In this document: positions 1,392 through 62,149 of the stretch, piece after piece
Layout: every line of letters begins with the position of its first letter
Position numbering within the stretch: the stretch's first letter is position 1
Origin: Cyanidioschyzon merolae
Lineage: Eukaryota
Assembly (NCBI GenBank): GCA_000091205.1
Contig: AP006498.2
Reading direction: 5' to 3' (one strand)
Length of the DNA: 64,000 bases
Program-made: the position numbers and the translations under genes
Notes under the pieces: generated by a model
The model's input: the letters and a program-made list of their open reading frames with translations, nothing else
Databases searched by the model: none
What the model was told of the DNA's origin: nothing

Positions 1392-1638
1392 TCTGCAGCT
1401 GTTTGTATATCACGAAAAGTGAACGAACCGCAGGTTGATGGGGTGCAACGAGCCTTCGTGAACCCGCGCTCGAGATGCTGCAGTTGACGCAGGCCGCTGG
1501 TGCATCGGGCCTCAGGCGTGGACACAGAGAATGGTGTACAGTTTGGGATTTTAATGGACACAAGTATACCACCCGGATAGCGATTCTCATCTGCGACATT
1601 CATTAACATATGGGTTTCCATGCTACTGCACGCTCTGA

Positions 1639-8130: not shown

Positions 8131-9672
8131 TCTGATGTGGGCGTACATTCTAAAGTTTCGCTCTCTGTAAACCATCATCCACAATAGCATTTGCAGGGTT
8201 TTTTCTAACTCGTTTCCCACGTAGAATCCACTGGTCTCGCCTGCTCCTCCAGCTTCGTTACCATCACTCGACGGATGTTGATGGCACCAAGATCGTGCCT
8301 GCTACGCTGGCTCAGGTTTCGTCAACGCTTTCCATGCAAAAGGCGCAGGGTATCATCTAAGCTCCGCTTACCATTCGGATCTCCTTCGCGCGCAACCTCG
8401 GTACACTCTTTACGGCGGTGGCACATCACTTCGGTCATGTTTTCAAGCACGTGCATCAACTCGCCGCCGCGGAAGGCTGCTCTATGGCGCGTTGACGCCT
8501 GCTTCATCGCTTGGTTCATGCTCTGGACGAGTGCAGAAGGCATCGCTTGATGCGCGCCCCCGTCTTGGTGCTCGGTGCAGTACCATACGAGCATCCGCCT
8601 CTTCTGGGCGATGCGCTCGGCGAGTACATTGTCCGTTGCACGCCCAAACGCAGGCGGCTCTATTGGATCGAGGATCTGTGAAACGTCAGCTTTTCCTTGA
8701 TGAACCTATTACCTTGCAGAGAATCGAGGCTCAAACACACGCCGAGAAATTTCGTTGCGTCTACACTCTCATCGGGCAAAACGGTGATACACGCCCCGCA
8801 GGAAGCGATCGCTGCGATGGCTCAAGTCCGAGTCCAAGAACCTGCTCGATCCCCAGAGAAGAGACGTGAGCCTCTGGGAGCAAATCCCATGTGAGAAATC
8901 ATGCTGCTGCCGAATGCCATTCCATTTATATCCATACAGATATCATGACAGATAATCCAACGACTAGGTGTGAATCCGTAAGCCGTTGTTGCCGCTGCAC
9001 TTCGAATGTCAAGGCTCTAGACCTGAAATAAGGTTTGGAAAATCTCCATGCAGGAACAGAGCCAGCATCCCAGTGTTCCCTGTTTCGAGCACATTCTATC
9101 GTCGCCTTTGGAGTATTCCGCTCGACAAGTGCTGGTGCCTTGTGAGCGGGCGCTGCTCGCCGCATTGGACACAGACACGCCTAGCGTTGCTTGCTGACGT
9201 CACTGCTTCTGCTGCTGCAACTTGCGAACCGGGCAGCTGGAAGTACGCAAACTCGCCAACGACGAGAGGCGCTCTAGTGTTGGAAGCTCCGTGCACTGCA
9301 GAGCGCGATTGTCGCTTGCTACCCAGAACGCTTTTTCGGTAGCTGCGACGGCAGTAGCAGCAGCTGCTACTTCTGCCAAAAACCGCCGCCGGTTCGCAGC
9401 CACGCCATCGTTGCTGTGAACGGGTGTCGCTTTCGAGGTTGCTCGTGAAACTTGGGTACCGTTGGAAGGCGCGGGGTCTTTGGCATTGGACCTCACTGGA
9501 AGTGAAACGCGTTCTGGGTGTCGATTACCTAAAAACAAGAGGCCCGGAACCAGAGGCGTCCCTGCGTATCGGCTGTACGCGACGGACGTCCGATACCAGG
9601 TTTCAGCGCTTATACGTAGCGGACGGAGGGGACGCGTCTCAAAAGTCTTCAACTCGAAAGGAGCATAGTTTC
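8131..9672 (+). repeat. Dispersed repeat family copy A (about 1.55 kb, unclassified; possibly a non-autonomous TE or fragment of a larger element)
   Basis: Near-identical (inverted) to 44615-46185 and partially to 31530-32340; duplicated six-frame ORFs (e.g. MTPASSLGSCSGRVQKASL..., MLVWYCTEHQDGGAHQA...) appear in all copies; no TIRs or LTR ends found. Confidence 0.7.
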
Positions 9673-23788: not shown

Positions 23789-24989
23789 GGAGTCCGTTCA
23801 CACCCAGCGCTGGGTAGCTTAAGTCAACGAAGATTTGAATCACCTTTGCTGCGTGTATTCGAATGCTTATTCACAATGTACAGCTGGACGTTGAGATCAT
23901 GATGGTATGCACTGTATCGATCATCGACGAATTGCCGCTAGGATGTATTCTCTGGTAAATAGTGAAAGGAGGTCTACATTCTGCTTCGGGTCAGGCATAC
24001 AATAGTACTCAGATGGTTGAGTAACACAGAAAGAATCACGTAGATACGCTCCGTGCCGAAAACCGATTTGCTCGAAGCGCGCCTGCGGTTAATGGTATAA
24101 AAATGATCCGTTCATCATATTACGGAAAGCAAAAGCAACGATCCTAGCAACTACCAGTGTCTCTATTTCTCAATAGCTTGTTCGCGTTGTCCTGAAAACA
24201 CTGGTATACAATCGCATAAAAAGTCCTGGTTCACAAACGGCAATCTTCCGCCGAAATCTCAACGACAGCGTCCTTGGAAAGTCAATATCGATATGAAGCA
24301 CAGAGACGACGATTTGTTTTTTCAGTTAATGAGAGCTTCTTCAGACGAAACGGCCGGAGTGCGGATGGGTAGTCGCGGAGCGTGGCGTCCGTTGTATGCG
24401 CTATCGAACTCTTAGAGAACGAGTATATCATCATCGGTCTAGCTGTAGTGGAATCATTTAGCGGCCTCCAATTCGCGTATACAGAAGGCTCATACAACAG
24501 CGTTGACTTCGTCGAATCAATAAAGGTGTTGTCTCTGACGTCTGGCCACGACCTTCTACTAGACAACGTGGTAGTTCACATTTCCCCTTGCGTCGAGCTT
24601 TTGACGATTCTAATTAGGTAGAGCTGCTTTTGACTCCTCCGTTCTCTCCGCGTTTCAACTGCATCGCAGGAATGTCTTCTATCGTGAAACGAAATGATCG
24701 CTCTAGTGGGCCAATCGATGATGCGTTCAGCACACAGTGAAACACCCGGGCACATGACGTTGTTCTTCCGCCAGTCCTTCATCCTCCGGGAAGGTCCTCG
24801 CTTAAGGGTATCAAGCAGCGCGTTCATTTTTTGAAGAAACTAAAAATCCCAGGGATGAGCTGGGGTTTACTCATCAGAAGATCGAGATGGAGAAAAGCCA
24901 GCGAAGCGCTCCGGCGATAGAAGAGCACGGGGAGCTGATCGAGCAGCAAATGGCACAGACGGCACAAGTTCGAGGACTACTTGCATTGG

Positions 24990-25312
24990 TGGGTTCAACA
25001 ACGGCAAGAAACGCATGGAGTTTGTGAACCGAGACTTTAACGCCGCTATCGATATCAGGAGATGTGCGGTGCTGGAGACGAGACCTCCAGAATAGACAAG
25101 AGTGAACTTTGTTGGACAGCCTCCAAAAATTGAACTATATGAGAAATAATTGGAACCAGTAGCTCGTGGCCGGTCGAAAATGGCTGGGAGGCGTCTGCAC
25201 ATCAGCTGGAGACGCTGTGTCTAGGGCGCGGTTTCTCGCCAATACTGTGCACGGCCAACGGCGACGTTCGACTTCTGAGGCGAGTTTGGTAGTGGTGGTA
25301 TTATGTGGTGTT
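24990..25312 (+). mobile_element. Solo 3'-terminal fragment of the Fanzor/TnpB-type element (last about 30 codons plus conserved non-coding right end)
   Basis: Encodes ...[29 protein letters not shown]; the following about 220 bp align with 40650-40872 (gtggccggtc.aaaa..gctgggaggcgtctgcac...ggagacg.c.tgtctagggcg...gttcgactt...). Confidence 0.6.
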
Positions 25313-30714: not shown

Positions 30715-31529
30715 GCGCAGTTTTCCGCTATTGAAACCCCGGAGTACGCTTTAGACGAAACAGGCTTGAGAAATTGAGTTTCCACTCGCAATGCGTACAG
30801 CGCAGTCCAGATCAGGCTTTCCTACTGGGCAGCTGCCTGGCACTATACATGCAGCAGGAAGCTATGCCAAAAACGTTCTATGAGGCTACTTTCCGCGCTG
30901 GCGCGGTGTCGAGGCGGTGTCCAGCTGTCCGTAATATTCCTAGTTGTACTGTTTTCATCGGAGCCGCTGCTTGGCCTGAGCCACGCTAATGTCAGAAAAA
31001 TCGTACACCGACTATTCACTATGTTCCTAACTTTCATATTTTCCAGCTTTTTCGGAGTTGAAGACTATCAACATTCCAAGTGCAGCATCCAAGACTTGCC
31101 CACTCAAGCGTCGTTTCGGGTTTTCGGTCGTCTTTTCCGAGTGGTTGCCTCGAAGCTTCGCCGCTAGTATTCAAGACAACACCGGAATCAAGTTGATCCG
31201 CCATGCCCACGGTCAAGGTTTCTTAGAATTACAGGACCCATAACCCAATATATACATGCATGCTTCCAATTCTCTCCTTTTCTAACGTGCAGCATGCTCA
31301 AAGCACGCGTTCTCCGAGTTTTCGATCTTTCTTTCTCAAGTTGAACGGTGAAGACACCAACTCGTGTCGCTTGATGTATAAGCGAAATGAATCGACATTG
31401 TCCCTTGACGCTCTGTTCACAAGCACATCCAAAAAGTTAATTCAAATTATTTTCTCAAACAATCAATTCCGTTCGAAAGAAACATCCTTCTTCCGACGTG
31501 GGTATCGACGTAATCGCATTCCACAAAAG

Positions 31530-32340
31530 TATGATTTCTCACATGGGATTTGCTCCCAGAGGCTCACGTCTCTTCTCTGGGGATCGAGCAGGTTCTTGGA
31601 CTCGGACTTGAGCCATCGCAGCGATCGCTTCCTGCGGGGCGTGTATCACCGTTTTGCCCGATGAGAGTGTAGACGCAACGAAATTTCTCGGCGTGTGTTT
31701 GAGCCTCGATTCTCTGCAAGGTAATAGGTTCATCAAGGAAAAGCTGACGTTTCACATATCCTCGATCCAATAGAGCCGCCTGCGTTTGGGCGTGCAACGG
31801 ACAATGTACTCGCCGAGCGCATCGCCCAGAAGAGGCGGATGCTCGTATGGTACTGCACCGAGCACCAAGACGGGGGCGCGCATCAAGCGATGCCTTCTGC
31901 ACTCGTCCAGAGCATGAACCAAGCGATGAAGCAGGCGTCAACGCGCCATAGAGCAGCCTTCCGCGGCGGCGAGTTGATGCACGTGCTTGAAAACATGACC
32001 GAAGTGATGTGCCACCGCCGTAAAGGGTGTACCGAGGTTGCGCGCGAAGGAGATCCGAATGGTAAGCGGAGCTTAGATGATACCCTGCGCCTTTTGCATG
32101 GAAAGCGTTGACGAAGCCTGAACCAGCGTAGCAGGCACGATCTTGGTGCCATCAACATCTGTCGAGTGATGGTGACGAAGCTGGAGGAGCAGGCGAGACC
32201 AGTGGATTCTACGTGGGAAACGAGTTAGAAAAAACCCTGCAAATGCTATTGTGGATAATGGGTTACAGAGAGCGAAACTTTAGAATGTACGCCCTTGCTG
32301 GATGGCCCGTTCCATTTGATGCTGACATAGGTGTAAGCTG
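31530..32340 (-). repeat. Dispersed repeat family copy B (truncated, about 0.8 kb)
   Basis: Aligns to 8131-8900 of copy A in inverted orientation; shares the 30-bp terminal extension (ttgctggatggcccgt.ccatttgatgc) with copy C. Confidence 0.7.
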
Positions 32341-34780: not shown

Positions 34781-35602
34781 ATGGTTTTTGTGAACGTCAA
34801 CGCCGCGTCACTGCAAACAGGTCGCTTTCTGGGTCGCGCCCTGCATCGTCGCCGCTTTTGCGAAGCGCGATCGCGCTCACCGCTCGGAACGCTTATGGTA
34901 ATGCCGCCTGTTTCGAGGCGGGCGTTTTTAGCTGCTTTTGCTGCTGGCGTTACTGGGATTGTCTTGGCACGGGCTTCACCGAGCTGGGCTGACGGTGCTG
35001 TCTCGCGGGCAACTCGAGAACGCGCCCGTGGCCAGTACGGTCCACGGGTGCTTGCGACGCAGGCTATTATAGACAGGATAGAGCAGGCGGCGAACGCTGG
35101 GAACCTGGAACTCGTCGCGGCTCTGACTGCAAACCCGAAGAAAATATCAAAAAAGGAACGGAAAGAACTGGAGTCTCTGGACGGTTTTGGGGCGCTCTAC
35201 GCGGAGCGGAACGCGTTCTTGCTTCTGAAAGGTGCAGTTCGGGGCGACCGAGTACGAGAGCCTGAGATGGATCGTGTTGTTGATCGGCTTTTCGCCACTG
35301 CAGACGAGATCTACCAGGCAGCGCGGATTGGAAACCGGGATAAGGTGATCCGAAGCGCGAGGAACTTGCCGCTCTACTTGAACTCTGTGATAACGGTTGC
35401 AGAAGTGAACCCTCGCGGCCCGGACGCTGCTCCAGGACAGGCATTCAGCAGCGATTTCGACTGGAGACGTGGTCGGGTTGCGATGCACTTAGAGGAGTCC
35501 GCCGCCAAGGGCTCGTCTGAGATGGCAGCGCAACCGGTGGTGTCGAAACCGTCTGCGCCTGCGCCTGCGCCTGCGCCAGAAGTATCCGCCGTCGGATCAT
35601 GA
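34781..35602 (+). CDS. Putative thylakoid-lumen protein with bipartite presequence (transit peptide plus twin-arginine Tat signal)
   Basis: 273 aa; SRRAFLAAFAAGVTGIVLARASPSWA = Tat consensus S-R-R-x-F-L followed by h-region and AxA-like site; Ala/Pro-rich C-terminal tail; mature domain not identified. Confidence 0.4.
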   Translation: MVFVNVNAASLQTGRFLGRALHRRRFCEARSRSPLGTLMVMPPVSRRAFLAAFAAGVTGIVLARASPSWADGAVSRATRERARGQYGPRVLATQAIIDRIEQAANAGNLELVAALTANPKKISKKERKELESLDGFGALYAERNAFLLLKGAVRGDRVREPEMDRVVDRLFATADEIYQAARIGNRDKVIRSARNLPLYLNSVITVAEVNPRGPDAAPGQAFSSDFDWRRGRVAMHLEESAAKGSSEMAAQPVVSKPSAPAPAPAPEVSAVGS

Positions 35603-36256
35603 GCACCAGGGGTAGCGCATACACAACAGAAGAGCGCGTTTGACAGGTTCGCGGTTTCAACTGGAGTGAAACGTTAGCATAAATAATTCATCGCTGTTGG
35701 AAAGCTCTCTGTGTTGGGGTTTATATATCCCATCAGTTTCAGGACGAATCGCGCTCTAAAGCGAATGATTCCAGACGTTGCATGCTCCTCAAGTGAACTT
35801 GTCATCAAAACTCGAGGCTTGCATCGAGCACAATGCTTGTCTCTTTTGTAGAAACACACACTGAAGCGTCGAAGAGCGCACGCTTCATCGTCACCAGAAA
35901 AACCGGTACTATCAGGCGTCGCGAACGCAAACTTCCCGTCCGTTCCAAACTGGTCTGCACCACCGTTCGAGGATTCCAGAGCATCGCGCCTTCAGCCCTG
36001 CGAAGAGTTCATGACTTGCGACCCGCATCACATCCTGGACGGGTACAATGGGCCTCCATTCGAGAAACCCTCCACATCGATTCGAAACATCAGGGCTTGT
36101 GTGTGCGCCATATTACAACCTGTTCCTTCTCTTGATCTGCATGTCCATGCTTTTGGGTGTCCGTGCAACGCTCGCCGGCTGCCGCCGTAATGCTATCCAG
36201 ATTCACAAACAAAACTATGTAAATCAAACCAAAATCTCCAACCAAAGCGCGGATGC

Positions 36257-37222
36257 TCATCTCACGTATGCCAGGGCCTCAGTCGCACTGTGCGCGCCTG
36301 AATGCTGCAGCAGCGGCAGCAGCCGTTGCCCGGCAAAGTCGGAAACGAGACACTCCACGAAGAGTGGCCGGTTCGTCGGAGGCATCTGTTGTGCATCCTG
36401 ATCAGAAGAAACCCTAGTAGACTGTGGACGCAACTGCTTCAAATACTGGACCGTGCGCGCAAAGTCCGCTGCGCCCCCATCCGGTAAATCATCACGATCG
36501 ACGCTTGTGAGAACAACGTCGTCAATATCCCAACTCGCAACCTCTGCAGCCACATTCATGGGCTCCTCAGGATCTGGTGGTCCTGGTCGAGCTGCAGTTT
36601 TCACAGCACAGAATCGGCATCCTCGAGTGCAAGTATCTCCGAGCAGCACGATGGTAGCGGCGGCGTGCTCCCCGTTCCAACATTCCCCAATATTGGGGCA
36701 TTGGGCCTCCTCGCAAACTGTGGACAGTTTTCTCGCTCGGAGACTCTCCCGCAGACGAAGAAAGCGTGAGTCCGGACGGAGTGCTGCAACAGCAGGCACT
36801 CGAAACCATTCTGGGCGATTCGCTGGTTGTGGCGCTCCCACCCGAGGGTACGCGGTACCACCACTGTCCGCGTGTGCAGGAGAGCGCTCGCATGGCGTGG
36901 CACGCGCTACTGGCACAGTACGCCGCTTCAAGCCCCGATTTGGTGCAGTCCGGCTTGGCTGTGGCAGGGCATTACGAAAGCGGGAAGACACGAACCATGT
37001 GGATTTCGAAGCTGTCGCTGTGCGATATCGCCAGGTTTGGGCGAGAAAGCCGAGGCACGCCTCTCGAGGCTCTGCGTTCAACGTTCCGCTCAGCGCTACC
37101 TGGGCAGACTGACGGTCGGGGTCGACTCGAACCACGTTCGATGGTGCTTCTATCTGCAAACGTGCCGCTTCGACGCAACCAGACCTAAGCGGTAGCGGCT
37201 CGTCGGGCGAGGTGCCCACCAC
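36257..37222 (-). CDS. LIAS: Lipoyl synthase (radical-SAM LipA/LIAS), N-terminal about two-thirds only; ORF terminates prematurely after the [11 protein letters not shown] block
   Basis: [13 protein letters not shown] (auxiliary cluster), [20 protein letters not shown] (CxxxCxxC), [29 protein letters not shown]. Expected C-terminal about 150 aa (AHNxETV ... SSY) not found in any listed ORF downstream. About 100-aa N-terminal presequence. Confidence 0.7.
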
Positions 37223-37499
37223 GACACCCCCAAGTCTTTGACCTCGCTGGTACGAGCGGCTCGAGCCGGTTCAACTGTTCGCCCCCTAGAGCCCAGACGC
37301 CACTAACAGTTCGGCTCCTGGTGGTAAAAGATTGCTTGACTTTGCTGAGCCCCGAACAGCACTGTATCTCCCAACAGCGCAGTAGATAGCTCGCATAAGA
37401 ACGGGTATGTGTCGTTGGAGCGCAAGTGCGTCCAAGGTTTCATTTGGTGTCCGGTTCGCCATCGTCGCACCTGCGCTGCAGTACTCTGGCGCTTGCAGT

Positions 37500-37731
37500 G
37501 CATTTGAAAACGGTACATTGAGCATTGGAGTTGCCCTAGATCAGTGCACTCTTGGGCACAGAGCAGGGACACGCTTCGACTGCGGCTCGTGTTCCATGTG
37601 GATGCAGCGCATTTGAAAACGGTACATTGAACACTGGAGTTGCCCTAGATCAGTGCACTCTTGGGCACAGAGCAGGGACACGCTTCGACTGCGGCTCGTG
37701 TTCCATGTGGATGCAGTGCATTTGAAAACGT
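37500..37731. repeat. 109-bp tandem duplication (2 copies plus 13-bp partial), non-coding, about 97% identical
   Basis: Unit gcatttgaaaacggtacattga.ca.tggagttgccctagatcagtgcactcttgggcacagagcagggacacgcttcgactgcggctcgtgttccatgtggatgcag starts at 37500, 37609 and 37718. Confidence 0.85.
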
Positions 37732-38586
37732 TTCCAATGTATTCTCGAGCGGCGGAGCTCGTCGTGTTGGGATCGTTCCCAACGGCTCGGGGCTCGATGC
37801 AGTCGTTGGAAAGCGTGACGTTCGTGCACGCGTCCGCACCGAAACTGAAAATAGGGATGACCTAAACGAAAATTGACGCTCTCTCATGTAATCCAAATTC
37901 GGAGCTGAATTCAAAGACCAGAACCGAATGCTTCTGAACCAGCAGCTACAGGGCATTGGAGGAAACGCACATTCGAGCGACGCACAAGAACCCCGGACAC
38001 AACCCCGTTCGCCGCGATCCACGTATGATCCGTACCCCAGTTCGAACGGATGCCCTATGTGGTACGGCAACGCCGTTCTGTCTCCGTGACGCAACTGTAC
38101 CGAAGGTAAAGACGCTATTGCGGATGACTAGGGCAGGCATTAGGTGTGCGATAGAACGCATGAAACGACCAGAAAATCCGAGAAGAAGTTTCGGTAATGT
38201 GACTTGGGAGTAGGGTGTTTGATGGATACTTCAAAGCGCACTGAAAAACAAATAAAAAAGAAAGAAAAGAAAAAGCGCACAGTCGGAGAACGCTGGCCTA
38301 AGTAAACGTCTTGTCAATGAAAAAAGAATCCCGCTCGGTGAGCGCATCAGGGAGATCGGGCAGTCAACTGACAAGACGCGCATGTCGCCGTTGAAGAGAA
38401 AAGCGATCCTGATCAGGTGCGTGTTCTACCGGAACAAGTTGGATTTCCGTTGGAGTTTTACAAAAAAGCAGTTTTTCATTTCATTTGTGCTTCAAACCTC
38501 AAACAAGTCTAGTCCAGAGTTTTTTCGCAGTATATAACAAAAGCGTTCGAAGAGCGTTCTTTTTCGAAAAAATAAAAAGGAAAGCT

Positions 38587-40649
38587 ATGAAAAGCAAGTC
38601 GACGATCCTGGAAGCCCAGTTTCGCCGGCTGCCAGAAAAAAAACAGAAAAACAGTGCCAAGTCCAGAAGAAAAGGAAGAGAAGAAGAACCGAAAGGGGGA
38701 TACCCTACGTCGAAGGCCGCAAGAAAGGCAACTGCACGACGAGAAGGCGGTGAAAGCCTTTCTTCTTGGACATATCAAGGATCCCTGCAGGGAAAAGTTG
38801 CGAGACGCTATCGGAAAACTTGTCGACTCGTACTCCAAGAGTATTGTCAAGGCGTCGTCAGGACCGATGCATTTGGCCAGGGAGACGTATCGCGACGTGA
38901 CGCACATGGAAACAGTCGAGATGCCGGACGAGTCGTTCGACATGACCCTTATTCGATACCTGATGCTTGGTACAGAAAAAGCGCAGAAGGAAAATGAGCT
39001 TGTGCATGCCCTCAACGAAAACTTCGCGGAATTCTGCTTCGAGGGTACCAGAGACGGGGGTGACTCGGATATTTACGACTATGGGGCGATGAAGTACCTC
39101 ACGAATCTGAAGAACCGTTTGACAACGAACCTCGAACGTTTCATGACACGCGCAGTGTTTGCACTCTACCCGGGCCAATCTCGCAATGGAAAATGGACGA
39201 TTATCAGTGGCATCACGAGAGATCGCAAGCGTGAAGATGAGGTCGAATTTGTCGATAAGAAGGCATCTAATGAGAGCACAAATGAAGCTTCTGTAATCCG
39301 TGCGGTTATACAAGAGCACCGCGCAGTTTTGGGCTGGCGAATCCAGCAGACAAGCTATCAGAGTTGAAAAAAGATACGGAGACATACTATCGCCTCATCC
39401 TGCGCGATTTCGTGTTTTTGGATCGAGAATTCGAACGCAAGGCGGAGATGAAGCTGAGCGAGGAAAAAATGAAGAGTGGGAGAGACGGAAGGCTTTCCTA
39501 ATGGGGAAGCGCTTCAACATGGTTCCAGTGTGCAACATCAAGTCACATTTTGTGACTATCGACTCCAGCGTCCTTCATGGCATCATGAGGGAGATCAGTC
39601 CGGAGTTCAATGTTAGCAGGGAGGACTTCAACGGTGAAAACCGGGAGACGTACTGGAAGAATATCTTCGACTTCAAGCGTCTCAAAGCCAGCAAGCAAAA
39701 GGTATTCACTGAGATGATCGAAACCAATGGAGTAGACATGTGTATACACTATCGGCGGTTGAAGAGAGATCGTCCAGTCCTGCCCTCAGCGAAGCATGAA
39801 GATGAGAAGGGGGCGGATCCTGCGACGCAGGAAGTGCAGGATAACGACTTCGTCGCTGGCGCGGACTCCGGAAACACAAATATCATAACCATCGCAGCAC
39901 CGAAGCTTGCGGAAGATGGTGCTGACGGCAACTTACGTCAGAAAGACATGCGTCCTTTAAGGTTCTCGAGAGCGAGATACTATTGAGAATCTGGAATCAT
40001 GAATGCGAGGAAGAAAACTGAGAAGTGGAATTCAGGAATGAAGGATCACCTGGAAGCTTTGAGCGAGGTGACGAGCCGAGGAGCAGACTTTGAAGCTTTT
40101 CGGGAGTTCATGGATGTTCGCGTTGCTCATTGGGATGCGCTGTAGGAGGAGTATACAAAGCCCCGGTCGCCTCGTTTGCGAATGAATTCGTATTGTGGGA
40201 AGCAGCGGGCGTTCGCGAATTTTTCAATGAGTTGAGTGCCCTGAAGGAGGATGAAAATCAGAGGCTCGTAGTAGCGTACGGAGCAGGGCACTGGAAGACC
40301 CAAAAAGGGTGTACACCAGCTCCAACGACGAGAGCGTACAAGGAGTGCGCAAGGCGTCTCGTTACGATACCTGTAGATGAGTTCCGGACATCGTATACAC
40401 ACCATGAACTGGGTTGTACACTTCAGAGGGTGGAGATGGAAAAGTGCCAGCGGAGCCCCGAGGCTATAAAAAAGTACGGACCGCTCACAGAAGAGCAAAT
40501 GGAAAGGAGAGCGAATGTTCGAGGGCCTGCTTGCATCAGTAAGTACAACCAGTGATGGTAAGAACCGGAAAGAGTTTGTGAACCGAGACTTTAACGCCGC
40601 TATGAATATAAGGAGATGTGCGGTGCTGGAGAACAGACCTCCAGAGTAG
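38587..40649 (+). CDS. Fanzor1 / TnpB-like RNA-guided endonuclease (RuvC-like), reading frame interrupted at least 3 times (short introns or frameshifts; possibly a pseudogene)
   Basis: Segments: 38587/38654-39367 (Lys/Arg-rich NLS-like N-terminus), 39300-39986 (contains RuvC-I ...[17 protein letters not shown] at about 39858), 40130-40555 (contains VVAYGAGHW and a Cys/His-rich segment [13 protein letters not shown]...EKCQRS...PACIS), 40560-40649 (Ruv[28 protein letters not shown], the NRDxNAAxNI hallmark of TnpB/Fanzor/Cas12). Summed about 640 aa. Confidence 0.6.
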
Positions 40650-40872
40650 ACAAGAGGGTATCTTGTTGGACAATCACTCAAGGTGGAACCATATGAGAAA
40701 AAGATGGAAGCAGTAGTAGGTGGCCGGTCCAAAAAGACTGGGAGGCGTCTGCACCTCGGTTGGAGACGTCTTGTCTAGGGCGGCTCGGTCGCCACTACTG
40801 TACACCGCTGCCGTCGTTCGACTTAGAACGGCGTTTGTTGTTGGTGTGTGTGTAATCGGTTGTTTGAAAGGC
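40560..40872 (+). ncRNA. Candidate omega-RNA (guide RNA scaffold) region at the 3' end of the Fanzor ORF and right end of the element
   Basis: By analogy with TnpB/Fanzor loci, where the omega-RNA overlaps the ORF 3' end and runs to the right end. This segment is the part conserved in the otherwise non-coding solo fragment at 25.0-25.3k. Confidence 0.3.
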
Positions 40873-40902
40873 ACAGCAGTCGCTGAGCACTGCTGGAATC
40901 CG

Positions 40903-42783
40903 ATGGGGTTTGCTGCAACGCCAGTTGCACGAGTGCTTTCTGTAAAAAAGCCGAGCTCGACGACGGCGAGACCGCGAAGCGTTTGGACGCCGTCGTTTAG
41001 GACACGGAAGAAAAGACTCGCGCCTCTTGTGGCAACGAACTCGCGCAAGACCAGCGCGGGGACGGGTATTCCGCCAGCATCGGGTCCACGGCCGAGGCAA
41101 GTATGGGAAGCACTATCGGCACGGGAGGCTGCGTTCTTGGCGGTCGAGTGTTCTCTGACTCAGGGTCATGATGTCGCCGAAGACGTGGACGGCAGTGATG
41201 CGCTCGACGGGAGGCCAAGCCAAGGGAGCGGCGGCGTTGGAGGCGCTCTCAGTAACAGGTACCTTCTGACGCAGCTAGCGCTTTGGAGCGAAAAGCACAA
41301 GCCCAGTCGCGTAGAATACGCACTGGCGAAGATTATCGCTTTTAATGCAGTTCGACAACGGGCGCTCTTTGACTATGTGCTGCAGACCAACATCGTTCGC
41401 GATCGGAGCGCCATCGACCAAGAGCCGCACCGCATCAAGTCGGAGGGCATGCACCTATCAATAGCGCAACGTGCACTACTGCACACGGCCCTGGCACAGT
41501 ACGCTTTCATGGAACGTGTTCCCGTCTACACGATTGTTTTTAGTACAGTGGAGATAGCGAAGACTTATTTTGGGCAACGCTTCGCTGCATTCGCCAATGC
41601 AATTTTGCGCAATCTAGTTCGGTACGGAGAGAAGTACGCTGCCGACTTGGAAAGCCGCCGTCCAGCATCCTACATCGTGCGGCCGCTTCCGTTTCCCGCC
41701 GACGCCCTCGATGTGCGCTACTCCTATCCCGCAGTGTTTGCGAGCCGAGTTTTTGGCCAGCTTTTGAATCGGAAACGCCTGGTGGCCTTCCTGGAGGCCG
41801 GAAACATGACCCCGCAAACTTTTCTGCGCGTTCCCCGCCAGCATGCCCAGCATGAAGATTTGAAAATGGCCATTGAAAGGCGCTTATTGGTCCCTTGGTC
41901 GGACCAAGATTCAACGGAAACAGTGAGTAGACCGTGGATCATTTACCGCGTCGACTTGCAGTGCGCTGGAGAAGATCCAGGTGCGGCCTTACCGCTCACA
42001 TTGCCGAGCGCAAATGGTACGGGCTGGGCAGATGATCCGGCCAATGTCCTCACGAGAAGCCTTTTTCAAAGACTGCTGCAGCACTTTATAGCTCAAAACG
42101 TAACACAAGCAGAGCATACGTTTCTTCTCTGCGAACAGTTACGCCAACGCTGGGACAAGGAAAGACGGATCGCGCGGGTCCTGGACCTCTGCACCGCACC
42201 TGGAGGCAAGCTTACAGCAGTTTTTGAGTACCTGCAGTATAGCGACCTCGGCGACGCGCAGACTGAATACATAGGCATTGATCTGAGCGATCAACGCATT
42301 CATATGGTCCACGAGAATGTCGACAAGACGCCGGGTATGCGCGAAAGTCGCGTTTTTGTCGGCGTTGCCCGTGGCGAGTCCTTTGTTGATTGCAGAGCGG
42401 GCAACATCTTGCGCAGTGAAGACGAGCGCGCTGTCAGTCCGTGTTTCGACCTTGTGATCGCGGACGTACCGTGTACGAATTCGGGGGTCTTGAATCGGCG
42501 ACCTGAAGCCCGTTGGAGACTCGACGAGCAGCATTTTGCGTCTTCGGTACCACGCTTGGTTTCGCTCCAGGCGAGTCTTTTGAATCGGGCGTGCCTTCTA
42601 TCTCGCTCTGCGGTGTTCTACATGACTTGCTCAGTTTTGCATGCGGAAGGACGCGATCTTGTGCGGTCAGTTCTCGAAAATCACCGTGACTTTGAACTTG
42701 TTTGGGATCACCTGACCTACACGGATGCCGCTGGACGGGATGGAGGCTATGCAGCCATGCTTTGGCGACGCCCGTCTCATTGA
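40903..42783 (+). CDS. RsmB/Sun-family rRNA (cytosine-C5) methyltransferase with N-terminal NusB-like domain (bacterial-type; likely organelle-targeted)
   Basis: Six-frame ORF starts at 40720 inside the TE right end; Met 40903 starts an S/T/R-rich transit-like peptide. NusB-like IIAFNAVRQRALFDYVLQ; MTase motifs LDLCTAPGGKL, LVIADVPCTNSGVLNRRPEARW, FYMTCSVLHAEG. Confidence 0.75.
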   Translation: MGFAATPVARVLSVKKPSSTTARPRSVWTPSFRTRKKRLAPLVATNSRKTSAGTGIPPASGPRPRQVWEALSAREAAFLAVECSLTQGHDVAEDVDGSDALDGRPSQGSGGVGGALSNRYLLTQLALWSEKHKPSRVEYALAKIIAFNAVRQRALFDYVLQTNIVRDRSAIDQEPHRIKSEGMHLSIAQRALLHTALAQYAFMERVPVYTIVFSTVEIAKTYFGQRFAAFANAILRNLVRYGEKYAADLESRRPASYIVRPLPFPADALDVRYSYPAVFASRVFGQLLNRKRLVAFLEAGNMTPQTFLRVPRQHAQHEDLKMAIERRLLVPWSDQDSTETVSRPWIIYRVDLQCAGEDPGAALPLTLPSANGTGWADDPANVLTRSLFQRLLQHFIAQNVTQAEHTFLLCEQLRQRWDKERRIARVLDLCTAPGGKLTAVFEYLQYSDLGDAQTEYIGIDLSDQRIHMVHENVDKTPGMRESRVFVGVARGESFVDCRAGNILRSEDERAVSPCFDLVIADVPCTNSGVLNRRPEARWRLDEQHFASSVPRLVSLQASLLNRACLLSRSAVFYMTCSVLHAEGRDLVRSVLENHRDFELVWDHLTYTDAAGRDGGYAAMLWRRPSH

Positions 42784-43838
42784 AATCGCTGCTGGCGCGT
42801 TATTCAGCGAGCGGCGCTTTGGGGGTTGAGATGTTTAGGGCTTTGCTTTCACCGCAAACTTAGGTGTTAGGATTTCCTTTAGGAACATTTCGTGCGTGAT
42901 GCTTTAGAGTATGAGTTCTAAAACGTCTCTGTGTTCCTCTCTGGATGCAGTTGGTTTGGGCTTTTTCCGAACTGCGCGACTTCCATGGCGTCGTATCTGG
43001 AAATGGAGCTCCAGCGCTTCATTCCGGAAATCATTCTGGTTTACTCGAGCGCAGCGAAAGCTTACGTCAGAGTTAAGCCTTTCGAGCTACACCGTGCACC
43101 AAGGCCCGCTACTTATCGCATTCGGAAGGTATTCACGTCGTCGCCGCGTGGTATGCCTCTGAATACAAAAAAGAAGCATGGCTTCCTTGGCGAACTCGGT
43201 ATATCGTTTCAGTAAATGCTCGTTTTGCGTCCAGAGCACTGTATCGAGTTAATAAAAACAGCCTGGAGGTTTCGGTGCTGCACGAGTTGCCGACTGGTGA
43301 GGATCGTATTGGCGTATCGCCACCTGCTCGAAAAAGATTGACTTTATTCATCGATCATATATGCCTCTTAGGCGATATCTACCAAGCACCCGATGCAGGA
43401 CAGTTGCCACGCCATATTGTCTCCATTCGTGGCATGCTTTTTTCGTTCCAGGTAAATCAGCAAACGTGATGGGTCGCAATATTTCTTATGAGCGTCCCTG
43501 TAACATTTGGAGCAGCGCATGTTTCCGAGGTGCTATGGCGAGGCGTTCTGCGCCTTGTGCTTTGCTTCCTGCGCGTCACGTGTTGGAAAGCGCGGGCTCC
43601 GCATTAAGACCTGTGGCGCCCATCGTGAACGCTGCAGGCTGCGTACGATCACGGCATTTTCCCTGGCCGCTCGCCATGGAATGCGTGCCTAAAAAGCGAA
43701 CGAATAACGTCCAGAAATATCCAGAAATCTCTATGAATGAGCACACTGCATTCTTTTCTTACACAGATTCGCATACTGCACGCATGGCGATACGATTTAG
43801 GGCATAACTAGCTCCGGCACGCTGTCTAAGCAACTGTT

Positions 43839-44528
43839 TTATAAACTGAAGAAACCCATGCCGTTACATTCGCGGCAAGGCCGCCCAAGCCCAGTGCCTT
43901 GGCACGGATAGCACGGTACCTCGTCGCCCAGGAAACCTTTCATTTTGCAGGAGCCGTTGCACATGAGACAAACGCTCCGGCGCTTACCGTGGCAGGCACC
44001 ACACTGGATCACTGGCCCGTACTGTTTCCGAAGCTGGCGACGCAATCTTTGTCGAAGAGTCGCTGCCGCTGGATCCGCGGCCGAATTCACTAGAAACCGA
44101 ATTGCTTCGCGAACTTCCTCTGGTGACAGGTACCCAGGTTCTTTGGATGCATCTCGACCGAAACCTTTTGCGGCCTGCATCCGCAACAGCGGCCTCGCGC
44201 GGCTGAAGCGCACGCCACAGGCTCCTTGTAGTCTGCTCCGTTGCATGCGCCCAGCGGTGCTGCAGTATCTGCTTTGTAGACATGTGCATACGGGCTCCAT
44301 GAACTGAAGAACAACCGAACAGCGGAATGTGGAGCCCAGCCTCGGAGAAGGTTCCATGTTTGGATGATAAACAAAAAGCTCCTGTGTTGACATTTTGGCG
44401 CACGAGTGATACCTGGGAATGAATCGACCCAGGTGGCTTCGAACGAGTTTCCTCTGGTCCGAAGAACCGTTCTCTAGTTTCTCACGTGCCACAGTATCAG
44501 TCTTCAAGGAAAGTTTCGATTCAATCAA
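43839..44528 (-). CDS. DnaJ-like zinc-finger protein (four CxxCxGxG repeats; BSD2/PSA2/LQY1-like plastid assembly-factor type); start uncertain
   Basis: C-terminus CGACHGKR...CLMCNGSC...CYPCQGTG...CRECNGMG; upstream part basic, with no other domain. Confidence 0.5.
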   Translation of the reverse strand: MIESKLSLKTDTVAREKLENGSSDQRKLVRSHLGRFIPRYHSCAKMSTQELFVYHPNMEPSPRLGSTFRCSVVLQFMEPVCTCLQSRYCSTAGRMQRSRLQGACGVRFSRARPLLRMQAAKGFGRDASKEPGYLSPEEVREAIRFLVNSAADPAAATLRQRLRRQLRKQYGPVIQCGACHGKRRSVCLMCNGSCKMKGFLGDEVPCYPCQGTGLGRPCRECNGMGFFSL

Positions 44529-44614
44529 GGGGGCAAAGCGGCCTGGGATGCGTACTCCCGTAAAACGAGAAAAACAAGGTAGTCGCTCAGTTCTGTCTAG
44601 CAGGGAACGGAACG

Positions 44615-46185
44615 TTAAATCTATGCTCCTTTCGAGTAGAAGACTTTTGAGACGCGTCCCCTCCGTCCGCTACGTATAAGCGCTGAAAACTGGTATCGGA
44701 CGTCCGTCGCGTACAGCCGATACGCAGGGACGCCTCTGGTTCCGGGCCTCTTGTTTTTAGGTAATCGACACCCAGAACGCGTTTCACTTCCAGTGAGGTC
44801 CAATGCCAAAGACCCCGCGCCTTCCAACGGTACCCAAGTTTCACGAGCAACCTCGAAAGCGACACCCGTTCACAGCAACGATGGCGTGGCTGCGAACCGG
44901 CGGCGGTTTTTGGCAGAAGTAGCAGCTGCTGCTACTGCCGTCGCAGCTACCGAAAAAGCGTTCTGGGTGGCAAGCGACAATCGCGCTCTGCAGTGCACGG
45001 AGCTTCCAACACTAGAGCGCCTCTCGTCGTTGGCGAGTTTGCGTACTTCCAGCTGCCCGGTTCGCAAGTTGCAGCAGCAGAAGCAGTGACGTCAGCAAGC
45101 AACGCTAGGCGTGTCTGTGTCCAATGCGGCGAGCAGCGCCTGCTCGCAAGGCACCAGCACTTGTCGAGCGGAATACTCCAAAGGCGACGATAGAATGTGC
45201 TCGAAACAGGGAACACTGGGATGCTGGTTCTGTTCCTGCATGGAGATTTTCCAAACCTTATTTCAGGTCTAGAGCCTTGACATTCGAAGTGCAGCAGCAA
45301 CAACGGCTTACGGATTCACACCTAGTCGTTGGATTATCTGTCATGATATCTGTATGGATATAAATGGAATGGCATTCGGCAGCAGCATGATTTCTCACAT
45401 GGGATTTGCTCCCAGAGGCTCACGTCTCTTCTCTGGGGATCGAGCAGGTTCTTGGACTCGGACTTGAGCCATCGCAGCGATCGTTTCCTGCGGGGGCGTG
45501 TATCACCGTTTTGCCCGATGAGAGTGTAGACGCAACGAAATTTCTCGGCGTGTGTTTGAGCCTCGATTCTCTGCAAGGTAATAGGTTCATCAAGGAAAAG
45601 CTGACGTTTCACAGATCCTCGATCCAATAGAGCCGCCTGCGTTTGGGCGTGCAACGGACAATGTACTCGCCGAGCGTATCGCCCAGAAGAGGCGGATGCT
45701 CGTATGGTACTGCACCGAGCACCAAGACGGGGGCGCGCATCAAGCGATGCCTTCTGCACTCGTCCAGAGCATGAACCAAGCGATGAAGCAGGCGTCAACG
45801 CGCCATAGAGCAGCCTTCCGCGGCGGCGAGTTGATGCACGTGCTTGAAAACATGACCGAAGTGATGTGCCACCGCCGTAGAGGGTGTACCGAGGTTGCGC
45901 GCGAAGGAGATCCGAATGGTAAGCGGAGCTTAGATGATACCCTGCGCCTTTTGCATGGAAAGCGTTGACGAAACCTGAGCCAGCGTAGCAGGCACGATCT
46001 TGGTGCCATCAACATCTGTCGAGTGATGGTGACGAAGCTGGAGGAGCAGGCGAGACCAGTGGATTCTACGTGGGAAACGAGTTAGAAAAAACCCTGCAAA
46101 TGCTATTGTGGATAATGGGTTACAGAGAGCGAAACTTTAGAATGTACGCCCTTGCTGGATGGCCCGTACCATTTGATGCCGTCTT
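44615..46185 (-). repeat. Dispersed repeat family copy C (full length, inverted relative to copy A)
   Basis: Reverse-complement alignment with 8131-9672 over about 1.55 kb at high identity; same duplicated ORFs (44587..45303, 45334..45798, 45696..45968, 45740..46015). Confidence 0.75.
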
Positions 46186-60699: not shown

Positions 60700-60975
60700 G
60701 CATTATGTCAGTGGCACAAAAAAGTCCTACGCCCAAGGGGCTATAGACGTGCCCGCACTCGCTGACGCCTCCACACCTTTTTTCACCGGCCGACTGCTAT
60801 CGGTCCCAGCTTCTCCTTGTGGACGTCGAGCGTCAGAGGCTGCCCAACAACGTTGAATCGCGTCAACTCTTTGGGTCTCGTGTTCAGCACTGCACATCTC
60901 TTGATGTTGGTGGCAGCCCTCAAGTCTGGATTCACAAACTCCATGCGTTTCTTGCTGCTGCTTGTCATCACCAAT
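60700..60975 (-). mobile_element. Diverged 3'-end fragment of the Fanzor/TnpB-type element (minus strand)
   Basis: ORF 60783..60974 encodes ...KKRMEFVNPDLRAATNIKRCAVLNTRPKELTRFNVVGQP, a degenerate version of [37 protein letters not shown]. Confidence 0.5.
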
Positions 60976-62149
60976 GCAAGGAGTCTGTAAACTCACGGCC
61001 TCTAGGCATGTACGGTCCCGTCATCTTCCGGTGGGGTAAACAATTTTTCTCGTCTGTCTCCCCTCCTGTTATTTTTCGTAACCTGCTGCCCTTCGCTCCT
61101 TGGTTGGCGAGAAGAGGAGATTTTCTTTTTTCCTGCCAGCCAGCGACACCGGGCCTCCAGGATCCTCGATTTGCATATCGATCACTCTGCCCTGGAATGT
61201 ATATTTTTGTACGAACATACTTTGAATGCATCTGCTATAGGCCGCGAAAAAGCATTTGATGACACGCATCCAGAAATGGAACACAATTGACATTAAAGCC
61301 TACAGGTAACCCACAGCCATCTAACACTGACATAGCAACAACAGACCAACTGGAACGCCGCGATCGATATGAACCACAGGCACGAGGTTTTGTATACCAA
61401 TCGGTGTATCTTCCTGAAGACGAAATATTCGGCGCGTGTAGGGATGTTCGCAGTAAGGGCCTCGCTGTATGTACGATTGAACCTGAGGCGAGCGGGAATG
61501 TCATAATCTGTTTCAGCTGCCGTCGAAGCCTTTGGCTGCCTCAGTTTCGCTCGTAGAGAAGACTTGCAAAAAAGCACCCACTTTGTCGAATCATTGAAGA
61601 TATTTCCCCTGGCATCTGGCGGTGACTTTCTTCATGACAACATGGAATTTCACCGTTCACCTTGCCTTCGAGGTTCTGTTGATTCTGTCGAGCTGTAGAA
61701 CTGTTTCTTATTCCTTCGTAGTCTGTGTCGTTGAACCGCATCGAGGAAATTTTTTATCGCTACAAGTAATCATTGGTCCACTGGATGAATTGTTGAAGCT
61801 TTCACCATGGAGACAACGGAACGAATATTGTTTTTTCTTCCGCAAGTCCTGCTTTCTTCGGGGAGGTCCTTACGTAATGGAATCTTGAGATGTGGTCATT
61901 TTCGAAAATACGATGCCCTAGGGAAAGTTTTGGGAAAACAAGTCGGGTATCCTGCAGGGCCGTTCATAGCCGGGTTCAATAAATAAAACGAAAAATACTC
62001 TTCCCGCCGACCATCGAGGGAAGAAGAGCACAAAACGAAGAAGATGAAGAAGAGAGAGACAGCCAGGACAAGGTGTCTGCCCGGCTGGACGATGACGAAA
62101 CTTTAGTGTCACAGAGGGCAAGAGTTTGAGGACGCCTAGCATTTCTATG

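What the first reader, a model, noticed from the sequence alone, without database searches (positions are those of the whole stretch)
38215..40872. Fanzor1/TnpB-like RNA-guided nuclease element inserted directly upstream of an organellar-type RsmB gene
The element is an A-rich island of about 2.7 kb in otherwise GC-rich DNA. It encodes a roughly 640-aa protein with a Lys/Arg-rich NLS-like N-terminus. It carries a RuvC-I block ([17 protein letters not shown]) and the RuvC-III signature [14 protein letters not shown] (RDxNAAxNI), which is diagnostic of the TnpB/Fanzor/Cas12 lineage. A Cys/His-rich segment sits just before RuvC-III, where the zinc finger is expected.

The reading frame changes at least three times, near 38650, 39300-39370 and 40555. 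An exon boundary candidate caGTAAGT lies at about 40538. So the copy is either intron-containing, as Fanzor1 genes often are, or a recently inactivated copy.

The right end lies about 30 bp before the probable start (Met 40903) of the RsmB/NusB-domain methyltransferase. That gene's six-frame ORF actually opens inside the element's right end.
Basis: partly seen in the sequence, partly recalled or inferred. Interest (0 to 1): 0.8.

Follow-up and report, generated by a model that had tools for sequence, protein, structure and literature searches.

The report
Dead Fanzor1 transposon copy (CMe-1A)

Summary
The window is nuclear DNA of Cyanidioschyzon merolae 10D. The flagged region is one copy of CMe-1A, the Fanzor1-bearing element described by Bao & Jurka (2013; about 150 copies, 3169-bp consensus, single-exon 734-aa ORF). 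Window 38354-40813 matches consensus positions 671-3145 at 86% identity, and the consensus end maps to 40833.

Membership in Fanzor1 holds for the family. A profile of 89 relatives hits only Fanzor1 chains in the PDB (E 1e-20 to 3e-8). An AlphaFold model of an intact relative (pLDDT 83) matches SpuFz1, PpFz and GtFz (E about 1e-17, TM 0.72). The rearranged RuvC triad is conserved: Asp, Gly at the canonical RuvC-II site, an alternative Glu, and Asp.

This copy is a pseudogene. It has five 1-2-bp frameshifts, a 12-bp deletion and three premature stops relative to the consensus. The same defects occur in an independent 99.2%-identical metagenome contig. The proposed GTAAGT "intron" is a Val-Ser codon pair.

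The repeat spans about 38042-40835/40843, not 38215-40872. Its 5' 290 bp is an inverted module joined to the core at 38328. The right end lies 60-70 bp before the start codon of the RsmB-like gene. The 3' 137 nt folds unusually stably on the sense strand, which fits an omega-RNA scaffold but does not prove one.

Verdict: already known; low interest.

The parts
38042..38327 (-). About 290-bp 5' module. It is an inverted copy of the first ~255-280 bp of the CMe-1A consensus, the part shared with TE-N2_CMe. It also occurs as a solo repeat in both orientations elsewhere. The same inverted-module-plus-core arrangement recurs in other loci, so it defines a subfamily.
   Evidence: blastn of consensus 84-254 against window 38214-38042 on the minus strand gives 76% identity. 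Many hits start sharply at 38042 and end at 38325-38330. The arrangement is contiguous with the core in L014, L023, L031, L053, L056, L016/17 and L020.
38328..38586 (+). Start of the common CMe-1A core: the untranslated leader upstream of the Fanzor1 ORF (consensus about 648-905).
   Evidence: Conservation among 31 copies begins at 38328-38345. The global alignment to the consensus agrees.
38587..40768 (+). Decayed Fanzor1 (CMe-1) ORF. ATG 38587 corresponds to the consensus start and TAG 40766-40768 to the consensus stop. It is broken by frameshifts near 38643, 39328, 39464, 40220 and 40523, by a 12-bp deletion at 39788, and by premature stops at 39984 (CGA>TGA), 40143 (TGG>TAG) and 40647 (TTG>TAG).
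   Evidence: Identical ORF fragments (237, 141 and 44 aa) are called on the independent contig L074.
39790..39865 (+). One unit of an acidic repeat of about 25 aa (75 nt) just before RuvC-I. Copy number varies between family members, and the region is predicted disordered.
   Evidence: There is a coverage spike at 39790-39865 in blast against the loci. P0001 has several units. pLDDT is below 50 for P0001 residues 383-469.
39864..39866 (+). RuvC-I catalytic Asp codon (GADSG; Asp484 of P0001).
   Evidence: sequence; the column is at least 90% conserved.
40379..40381 (+). Alternative RuvC-II Glu codon (VDEFRTS; Glu656 of P0001). It lies in a different frame from the two Asp codons in this copy. 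The canonical RuvC-II position is Gly (AYG).
   Evidence: Glu656 is 99% and Gly623 99% conserved in 89 relatives. The rearranged site is described by Jiang et al. 2023 (PMC10530073).
40587..40589 (+). RuvC-III catalytic Asp codon ([10 protein letters not shown]; Asp725 of P0001).
   Evidence: Arg724/Asp725 96-97% conserved. It gives a weak Pfam Cas12f1-like_TNB match (E=0.21).
40700..40836 (+). Highly structured 3' end. It overlaps the last ~22 codons of the consensus ORF and the right end. A long stem with nested hairpins is followed by a terminal 8-bp hairpin at 40812-40833. It is a candidate omega-RNA scaffold (inferred).
   Evidence: MFE is -64 kcal/mol against -46 +/- 3.7 for shuffles, z=-4.8, 0/200. 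Antisense is -46.7, z=-2.6. L001 shows the same asymmetry. Covariation is not significant and there is no Rfam match.
40833..40843 (+). Right end of the element. The published consensus ends at 40833. Weak residual similarity (TT, then a G/T-rich stretch) runs about 2-10 bp further.
24855..25274 (+). Second, 5'-truncated CMe-1A fragment (consensus 2737-3153). It ends about 30 bp before the ATG (25303) of the next gene, in the same orientation.
   Evidence: (82% identity to the consensus)
60761..61290 (-). Remnants of a third, internally deleted CMe-1A copy. Window 61121-61290 matches consensus 800-968, and 60761-60953 matches the 3' coding part.

Best explanation
The region is a dead copy of the Cyanidioschyzon merolae transposable element CMe-1A. 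It sits in the 3.7-kb spacer between a radical-SAM (lipoyl-synthase-like) ORF on the minus strand and the RsmB/NusB-domain methyltransferase gene on the plus strand.

Intact family members encode a single-exon Fanzor1 protein of about 734 aa. Fanzor1 is a eukaryotic TnpB relative with a WED/REC/RuvC architecture and a rearranged RuvC active site: Asp, an alternative Glu and Asp, with Gly at the canonical RuvC-II position.

By analogy with the experimentally characterised Fanzor1 proteins, the protein binds an omega-RNA. That RNA is transcribed from the 3' end of its own ORF and the right end of the element, and its 3' guide is read from the flanking DNA. The complex then cuts matching double-stranded DNA next to a short motif. 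This step is inferred here, not shown.

The copy in this window cannot make that protein. Five small frameshifts and three nonsense codons split the three catalytic codons over different frames. It is about 13% diverged from the family consensus, so it is an old, neutrally decaying insertion. At most, its structured 3' end could still be transcribed.
For: Organism: two window proteins are exact matches to C. merolae 10D proteins BAM81931.1 and BAM81923.1 on a 908,485-bp chromosome.

Family identity:
- The published CMe-1A consensus (Bao & Jurka 2013, PMC3627910, suppl. files 2 and 3) aligns to window 38354-40813 at 86.4% identity over 2.48 kb. Its last base maps to 40833.
- 47 protein relatives have E down to 0, and 71 related loci were found.

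Fanzor1 membership of the family:
- A profile of 89 relatives hits only PpFz1 (1e-20), SpuFz1 (4.5e-14) and GtFz1 (2.9e-8) in the PDB.
- The AF2 model of intact relative P0001 has pLDDT 83 and pTM 0.81.
- The top seven Foldseek PDB hits are all Fanzor1 (E 5e-17 to 1e-13, TM up to 0.72). Cas12 and Fanzor2 follow only at E >= 5e-3.
- Asp484, Gly623, Glu656 and Asp725 are conserved at 90-99% or more.

Pseudogene status:
- The same ORF fragments occur on the independently assembled, 99.2%-identical contig L074.

Structured 3' end.
Against: - Single-sequence searches are weak. Pfam gives only Cas12f1-like_TNB at E=0.21, and phmmer against the PDB finds nothing. Membership therefore rests on profile and fold evidence.
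- The canonical CxxC..CxxC zinc ribbon of TnpB/SpuFz1 is not conserved in this clade.
- No omega-RNA is demonstrated. Covariation in the 3' region is no better than shuffled controls, and expression cannot be tested here.
- No nuclease activity has been shown for any CMe-1 protein, as far as the searched literature shows.
- The mode of transposition is unknown. Bao & Jurka found no transposase gene, TIRs or TSDs, and none was seen here.
Confidence: 0.93

Rival explanations
1. This is an active, intron-containing Fanzor1 gene. On this reading the frame changes are exon boundaries and GTAAGT at about 40540 is a splice donor.
For: Many Fanzor1 genes in other eukaryotes do carry introns (Jiang et al. 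2023).
Against: - Every frame change is a 1-2-bp indel inside sequence that stays colinear with the single-exon consensus. No intervening sequence is present.
- Three stops replace conserved Arg, Trp and Leu codons.
- GTAAGT encodes Val-Ser in intact copies.
- The published family ORF has one exon.
Confidence: 0.02
2. The insertion has been exapted. Either its 3' end now provides the promoter or 5' UTR of the RsmB-like gene, or it yields an omega-RNA used in trans by Fanzor1 from intact copies, with the RsmB upstream sequence as guide.
For: - The right end lies only 60-70 bp from ATG 40903, in the same orientation.
- A second 3' fragment lies about 30 bp before ATG 25303, also in the same orientation.
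- The insertion, with its defects, is retained in a 99.2%-identical wild strain.
- The 3' end folds very stably on the sense strand.
Against: - In a compact genome only intergenic insertions survive, so proximity to a start codon is expected.
- In other loci the next gene is far away or on the other strand.
- 99% identity between strains reflects recent common ancestry, not selection.
- No expression data are available.
Confidence: 0.08
3. The frameshifts and stops are sequencing or assembly errors in an otherwise intact copy.
For: Homopolymer runs, such as the A-runs near 38640, are error-prone.
Against: An independent metagenome assembly (L074, 52 mismatches in 6.4 kb) carries the same broken ORFs of 237, 141 and 44 aa. 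There are eight independent lesions plus about 13% substitutions.
Confidence: 0.01

Closest known systems
CMe-1A element / CMe-1 Fanzor1 protein of Cyanidioschyzon merolae (Bao & Jurka 2013, Mobile DNA 4:12; Repbase-type consensus, 3169 bp, about 150 copies)
   Same: Same organism and same family. Identity is 86.4% over consensus 671-3145, and the right end is identical up to the last consensus base. The ORF has the same order of motifs. The divergence matches the published '~80% identical to consensus'.
   Different: This copy lacks consensus 1-647 in direct orientation. Instead it carries an inverted ~290-bp piece of that 5' region fused to the core at 38328, a subfamily arrangement also seen in several metagenome loci. 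The ORF is destroyed.
Spizellomyces punctatus Fanzor1 (SpuFz1; PDB 8GKH, 9CEU-9CEZ), with Parasitella parasitica and Guillardia theta Fanzor1
   Same: The overall fold is the same (Foldseek E about 1e-17, TM 0.72 on the target). There is profile-level sequence homology. Both share the DPG...DE[FY][RK]TS...NRDxN[AS] motifs and the rearranged RuvC site.
   Different: Sequence identity is only 12-15%. The CMe-1 clade lacks the CxxC..CxxC zinc ribbon seen in SpuFz1 and carries an acidic disordered repeat insertion before RuvC-I. No biochemical data exist for CMe-1.
Prokaryotic TnpB of IS200/IS605 and IS607 (e.g. ISDra2 TnpB)
   Same: Same RuvC-lineage nuclease. The omega-RNA is expected from the 3' end of the ORF and the right end. 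The RDxNAAxNI RuvC-III signature is shared.
   Different: No Pfam OrfB_IS605/OrfB_Zn_ribbon match reaches threshold. There is no TnpA partner. The protein is longer, has a basic N-terminus and belongs to a eukaryotic nuclear multi-copy element.
Helitron-borne Fanzor1 of Chlamydomonas reinhardtii (CRe-1/2/3)
   Same: An algal Fanzor1 carried by a high-copy element that has a terminal 3' hairpin and many 5'-variable or truncated copies.
   Different: No RepHel gene or Helitron termini were identified for CMe-1A, and its class remains unknown.

Membership tests
CMe-1A (Fanzor1 element family of C. merolae) | DNA identity to the published consensus over most of its length | tested here: met
   86.4% over 2479 bp, consensus 671-3145 against window 38354-40813. 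The global alignment is 87.4%.
CMe-1A (Fanzor1 element family of C. merolae) | Both published termini present: consensus position 1 at the left and 3169 at the right | tested here: not met
   The right terminus is present (3169 = 40833). Consensus 1-647 is absent in direct orientation, and only an inverted piece (consensus 84-254) abuts the core. This makes it a subfamily or rearranged 5' end.
Fanzor1 | Sequence homology to bona fide Fanzor1 proteins | tested here: met
   The profile of 89 family members hits only PpFz1 1.1e-20, SpuFz1 4.5e-14 and GtFz1 2.9e-8 in the PDB. Single-sequence searches fail.
Fanzor1 | Fanzor1 three-dimensional architecture | tested here: met
   The AF2 model of intact relative P0001 has pLDDT 83 and pTM 0.81. 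The top seven Foldseek PDB hits are all Fanzor1, with E 5e-17 to 1e-13 and TM up to 0.72. This was tested on a relative, not on the broken window copy.
Fanzor1 | Rearranged RuvC active site: RuvC-I Asp, a non-acidic residue at canonical RuvC-II, an alternative Glu downstream, and RuvC-III Asp | tested here: met
   Asp484 is at least 90% conserved, Gly623 99%, Glu656 99% and Asp725 96% in 89 sequences. The codons are present in the window at 39864, 40379 and 40587, but in different frames.
Fanzor1 | Intact open reading frame, i.e. able to make the nuclease | tested here: not met
   Five frameshifts, a 12-bp deletion and three premature stops, confirmed on independent contig L074.
Fanzor1 | Omega-RNA encoded at the 3' end of the ORF and the right end, with the guide taken from the flank | tested here: inconclusive
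   The sense-strand fold is unusually stable (z=-4.8 against -2.6 antisense). Covariation does not exceed shuffled controls. RNAalifold gave no consensus. There is no Rfam family. Expression was not testable.
Fanzor1 | RNA-guided, TAM-dependent double-stranded DNA cleavage | not testable with these tools
   Needs biochemistry. No report for CMe-1 was found.
Fanzor1 | Basic N-terminal nuclear localisation signal | not tested
   The consensus N-terminus carries KKRK and KKQKREARRQR. The window copy keeps K/R-rich stretches, but across a frameshift. No NLS predictor was run.
TnpB / Cas12f-type TNB zinc ribbon | Two CxxC pairs between RuvC-II and RuvC-III | tested here: not met
   Between Glu656 and Asp725 no Cys column pair is conserved. 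His663/664 are at 30-38% and Cys708 at 70% (Leu in CMe-1). CMe-1's Cys668 and Cys678 are lineage-specific.
Prokaryotic TnpB (IS200/IS605, IS607) | Pfam OrfB_IS605 / OrfB_Zn_ribbon above the gathering score, and an adjacent TnpA | tested here: not met
   There is only a sub-threshold TNB match (12 bits against 26.3). No other ORF of significance lies within the 2.8-kb element.

The most novel reading that the evidence does not exclude
CMe-1A may spread without any transposase, by a copy mechanism anchored at its structured 3' end. Candidates are Fanzor1/omega-RNA-directed breaks repaired by C. merolae's efficient homologous recombination, or an RNA-mediated route.

Three observations fit this:
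- Almost all copies keep the 3' end.
- 5' truncations outnumber 3' truncations 22 to 4.
- At least four unrelated 5' modules are fused to the same core.

On this reading, dead copies such as this one could still supply omega-RNAs whose guides are host promoter sequences, here the sequence upstream of the RsmB-like gene.
Probability: 0.06. Interest if true: 0.6.

Novelty: already known. Interest (0 to 1): 0.13.

Why it matters
It matters little as a discovery. The family, its Fanzor1 assignment, its copy number and even its consensus sequence were published in 2013. Fanzor1 function was established in 2023-2024.

The useful outcomes are practical:
- This intergenic block can be annotated confidently as a CMe-1A pseudogene copy, together with two further fragments in the same window.
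- Its ends are now defined.
- The six-frame ORF that seems to extend the RsmB-like gene upstream is shown to be an artefact of the transposon's right end.

The family itself remains mildly interesting. No transposase, TIRs or TSDs are known for it. Intact copies persist in wild Cyanidioschyzon populations. Its 3' end has the properties expected of an omega-RNA scaffold.

Tried and rejected
- Single-sequence Pfam and PDB searches of the frame-corrected translation and of intact relatives found nothing significant. A shallow family profile also found nothing. Only the deep 89-sequence profile worked.
- The precomputed Pfam tag on relatives is just DUF8286 (weak).
- RNAalifold on 58 aligned 3' ends returned no structure.
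- A structure derived from the consensus fold showed no covariation above shuffled controls: 82.7% paired against 82.4%. Copies differ mainly by post-insertion decay, so this test has little power.
- Rfam gave no match.
- I looked for an empty orthologous site. The only orthologous contig found (L074) carries the same insertion and starts inside it.
- I looked for target-site duplications or TIRs at 38042/38328 and 40833-40843 and saw none. This agrees with Bao & Jurka.
- The flank after the right end is only weakly T/G-rich for about 8-10 bp.
- A T-rich run precedes consensus position 1 in consensus-type copies. Whether it is a TAM-like target motif or part of the element was not resolved.
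- The intron hypothesis was rejected.
- A bacterial IS605/TnpB or contamination reading was rejected, given the eukaryotic chromosome context, the Fanzor1-only PDB hits and the absence of TnpA.
Full report
**Source of the window.** Two long ORFs of the window are exact matches to proteins of Cyanidioschyzon merolae strain 10D. ORF 40903-42783 is BAM81931.1, 'similar to RNA methyltransferase'. ORF 9790-14013 is BAM81923.1. Both lie on a 908,485-bp chromosome. The window is therefore nuclear DNA of this intron-poor, compact red-algal genome. The downstream gene carries NusB and RsmB/F methyltransferase domains.

**Checking the observation.** The region is A- and purine-rich and lower in GC than its surroundings. 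The quoted peptides are there:
- [17 protein letters not shown] at 39852-39902
- [14 protein letters not shown] at 40569-40610

A coherent protein-like translation can be traced from ATG 38587 only by changing frame repeatedly and reading through stops. The six-frame ORF of the methyltransferase gene does open at GTG 40720, inside the repeat. The annotated protein starts at Met 40903.

**Identity.** A frame-corrected translation finds 47 close relatives (54-83% identity, E down to 0). All come from JGI/ENA metagenome assemblies, and some have long intact ORFs, such as P0001 at 752 aa. A scan of metagenome contigs returned 71 related loci, so this is a high-copy family in wild Cyanidioschyzon-like populations.

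The literature search led directly to Bao & Jurka 2013 (PMC3627910). They list one Fanzor1 family in C. merolae, CMe-1A, with these properties:
- 3169-bp consensus
- about 150 copies, each about 80% identical to the consensus
- both ends defined, no TIRs, TSD undetermined
- a 734-aa protein in a single exon
- the 5' 635 bp shared with a separate repeat, TE-N2_CMe
- TE class unknown

I took the consensus from their Additional file 2 and aligned it. Consensus 671-3145 matches window 38354-40813 at 86.4% identity. In a global alignment the last consensus base (3169) falls at 40833. The published CMe-1 protein is visibly the same protein as the window's conceptual translation. The finding is therefore a copy of an already published element.

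**Is the family really Fanzor1?** Single-sequence tests are uninformative. Pfam gives only a sub-threshold Cas12f1-like_TNB hit on the RDFNAA block, and phmmer against the PDB finds nothing. A shallow family profile also fails.

An exhaustive HMM search with the family profile found 1510 relatives, 294 of them below 1e-30. Many are 600-700-aa proteins. An 89-sequence alignment of these (A3) was used as a profile against the PDB. It hits exactly three proteins, all Fanzor1:

| PDB protein | E-value |
|---|---|
| Parasitella parasitica Fz1 | 1.1e-20 |
| Spizellomyces punctatus Fz1 | 4.5e-14 |
| Guillardia theta Fz1 | 2.9e-8 |

AlphaFold2 on P0001 with this alignment gave a confident model, with pLDDT 83 and pTM 0.81. 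Only the acidic repeat insert, residues 383-469, is disordered. Foldseek against the PDB returns SpuFz, PpFz and GtFz as the top seven hits, with E 5e-17 to 1e-13 and TM up to 0.72. Cas12 and Fanzor2 appear only at E >= 5e-3.

The alignment shows the rearranged RuvC site that Jiang et al. 2023 describe for Fanzors. The conserved residues are as follows:

| Position in P0001 | Role | Motif | Conservation |
|---|---|---|---|
| Asp484 | RuvC-I | DPG | at least 90% |
| Gly623 | canonical RuvC-II position | AYG | 99% |
| Glu656 | alternative Glu, 33 residues later | DEFRTS | 99% |
| Arg724-Asp725 | RuvC-III | - | 96-97% |

A canonical CxxC..CxxC zinc ribbon is not conserved in this clade.

**State of this copy.** Relative to the single-exon consensus, the ORF has these lesions:
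- net frameshifting indels of 1-2 bp near 38643, 39328, 39464, 40220 and 40523
- a 12-bp deletion at 39788
- a premature stop at 39984 (CGA to TGA)
- a premature stop at 40143 (TGG to TAG)
- a premature stop at 40647 (TTG to TAG)

There is no inserted sequence at any frame change. The GTAAGT at about 40540 is the Val-Ser pair of 'LVSTTS', in frame in intact copies. The three catalytic codons survive (39864-66, 40379-81, 40587-89) but lie in frames 0, 2 and 0. Substitution divergence from the consensus is about 13%.

An independently assembled metagenome contig (L074) is 99.2% identical to window 38350-44747. It carries the same broken ORFs, so the lesions are real. The copy is an old pseudogene.

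**Ends and internal anatomy.** Blast of the region against 73 loci shows repeated DNA only between about 38042 and about 40845.

At the right end, 58 aligned copies stay conserved through a terminal hairpin (CGTCGTTCGA-CTT-TCGAACGGCG) to GGCG(TT). They then diverge, with only weak T/G-richness for 8-10 bp.

At the left end, the common core starts at 38328-38345. At least four unrelated upstream sequences are fused to it in different copies. In this window the upstream piece, 38042-38327, is an inverted copy of the first ~255-280 bp of the consensus. This is the TE-N2_CMe-like part. It also exists as a solo ~290-bp repeat in both orientations. The same inverted-module-plus-core arrangement recurs in several unrelated loci, so it is a propagated subfamily and not a local accident.

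The true distance to Met 40903 is 60-70 bp.

**The 3' end as RNA.** In characterised Fanzor1 systems the omega-RNA overlaps the 3' end of the ORF and the right end, and the guide follows (Saito et al. 2023; Jiang et al. 2023).

Here, 40700-40836 folds to -64 kcal/mol against -46 +/- 3.7 for shuffles (z=-4.8). The antisense strand is much weaker (-46.7, z=-2.6). The intact copy L001 shows the same asymmetry. This is consistent with a sense-strand structured RNA.

It is not proof:
- RNAalifold found no consensus structure.
- Pair counts on my proposed structure equal shuffled controls. This is expected when differences are mostly post-insertion decay.
- Rfam has nothing.

**How it works.** Shown:
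- family membership and fold
- the catalytic motif pattern
- the pseudogene state
- the element boundaries

Inferred from characterised Fanzor1 and TnpB:
- Intact CMe-1 proteins form an RNP with an omega-RNA from the element's 3' end and cut DNA that matches the flanking-derived guide.
- The N-terminal K/R-rich segment serves nuclear import.

How CMe-1A transposes is unknown. No transposase, TIRs or TSDs are present. Among 117 copy pieces, 77 reach the 3' end, and 5' truncations outnumber 3' truncations 22 to 4. This points to the 3' end as the essential cis element. I could not discriminate between mechanisms.

**Verdict.** The feature is already known as one of about 150 CMe-1A copies, so interest is low.

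Noticed in passing
window 24855-25274 (+): A solo 5'-truncated CMe-1A 3' fragment (consensus 2737-3153, 82% identity). It ends about 30 bp before the ATG of the next gene (25303), in the same orientation. This is the same placement as the main copy relative to the RsmB-like gene.
   Followed up: partly
window 60761-60953 and 61121-61290 (-): Remnants of a third, internally deleted CMe-1A copy (3' coding part and consensus 800-968; 67-75% identity).
   Followed up: partly
window 8139-9671, 44618-46151 (inverted), 31499-32335: A different, young repeat family of about 1.5 kb. Three copies in 64 kb are 97-99% identical. There is no convincing ORF, so it is probably a non-autonomous element.
   Followed up: partly
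window 37494-37730: A tandem duplication of a ~109-bp unit (97% identical) in the spacer just left of the element.
   Followed up: no
window 26124-26678: Near-perfect tandem 162-bp (54-aa) coding repeats (98-99%) inside ORF 25303-27099, whose function is unknown.
   Followed up: no
window 36257-37222 (-): The lipoyl-synthase-like radical-SAM ORF stops shortly after its 'DFAG' motif. I could not find the expected C-terminal ~100 aa in any frame downstream (35500-36330). It may have an intron, be a pseudogene or have an atypical C-terminus.
   Followed up: partly
L043, L044, L045, L057, L059, L061 (e.g. L045 3-656 minus and 653-1801 plus): Several related loci carry two 5'-truncated CMe-1A copies joined head-to-head (palindromic) at consensus ~2093-2140, inside the acidic tandem-repeat region.
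   Followed up: no
window 39790-39865; P0001 residues 383-469: The Fanzor1 ORF contains an acidic repeat of about 25 aa (75 nt) before RuvC-I. Its copy number varies between copies, from one here to several in P0001, P0007 and P0012. It is predicted disordered.
   Followed up: partly
left flanks of consensus-type copies, e.g. L020 ~3690, L039 ~4020, L055 ~4475: A conserved T-rich run (GATTTTTTTTC-like) lies immediately before consensus position 1. Either the element extends ~10 bp beyond the published left end, or this is a target/TAM-like motif.
   Followed up: no
loci L001-L073 plus window: Truncation is strongly asymmetric. 22 copies are 5'-truncated away from contig edges against 4 that are 3'-truncated, and 77 of 117 pieces reach the 3' end. 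At least four unrelated 5' modules are fused to the core at the same point (window 38328).
   Followed up: partly
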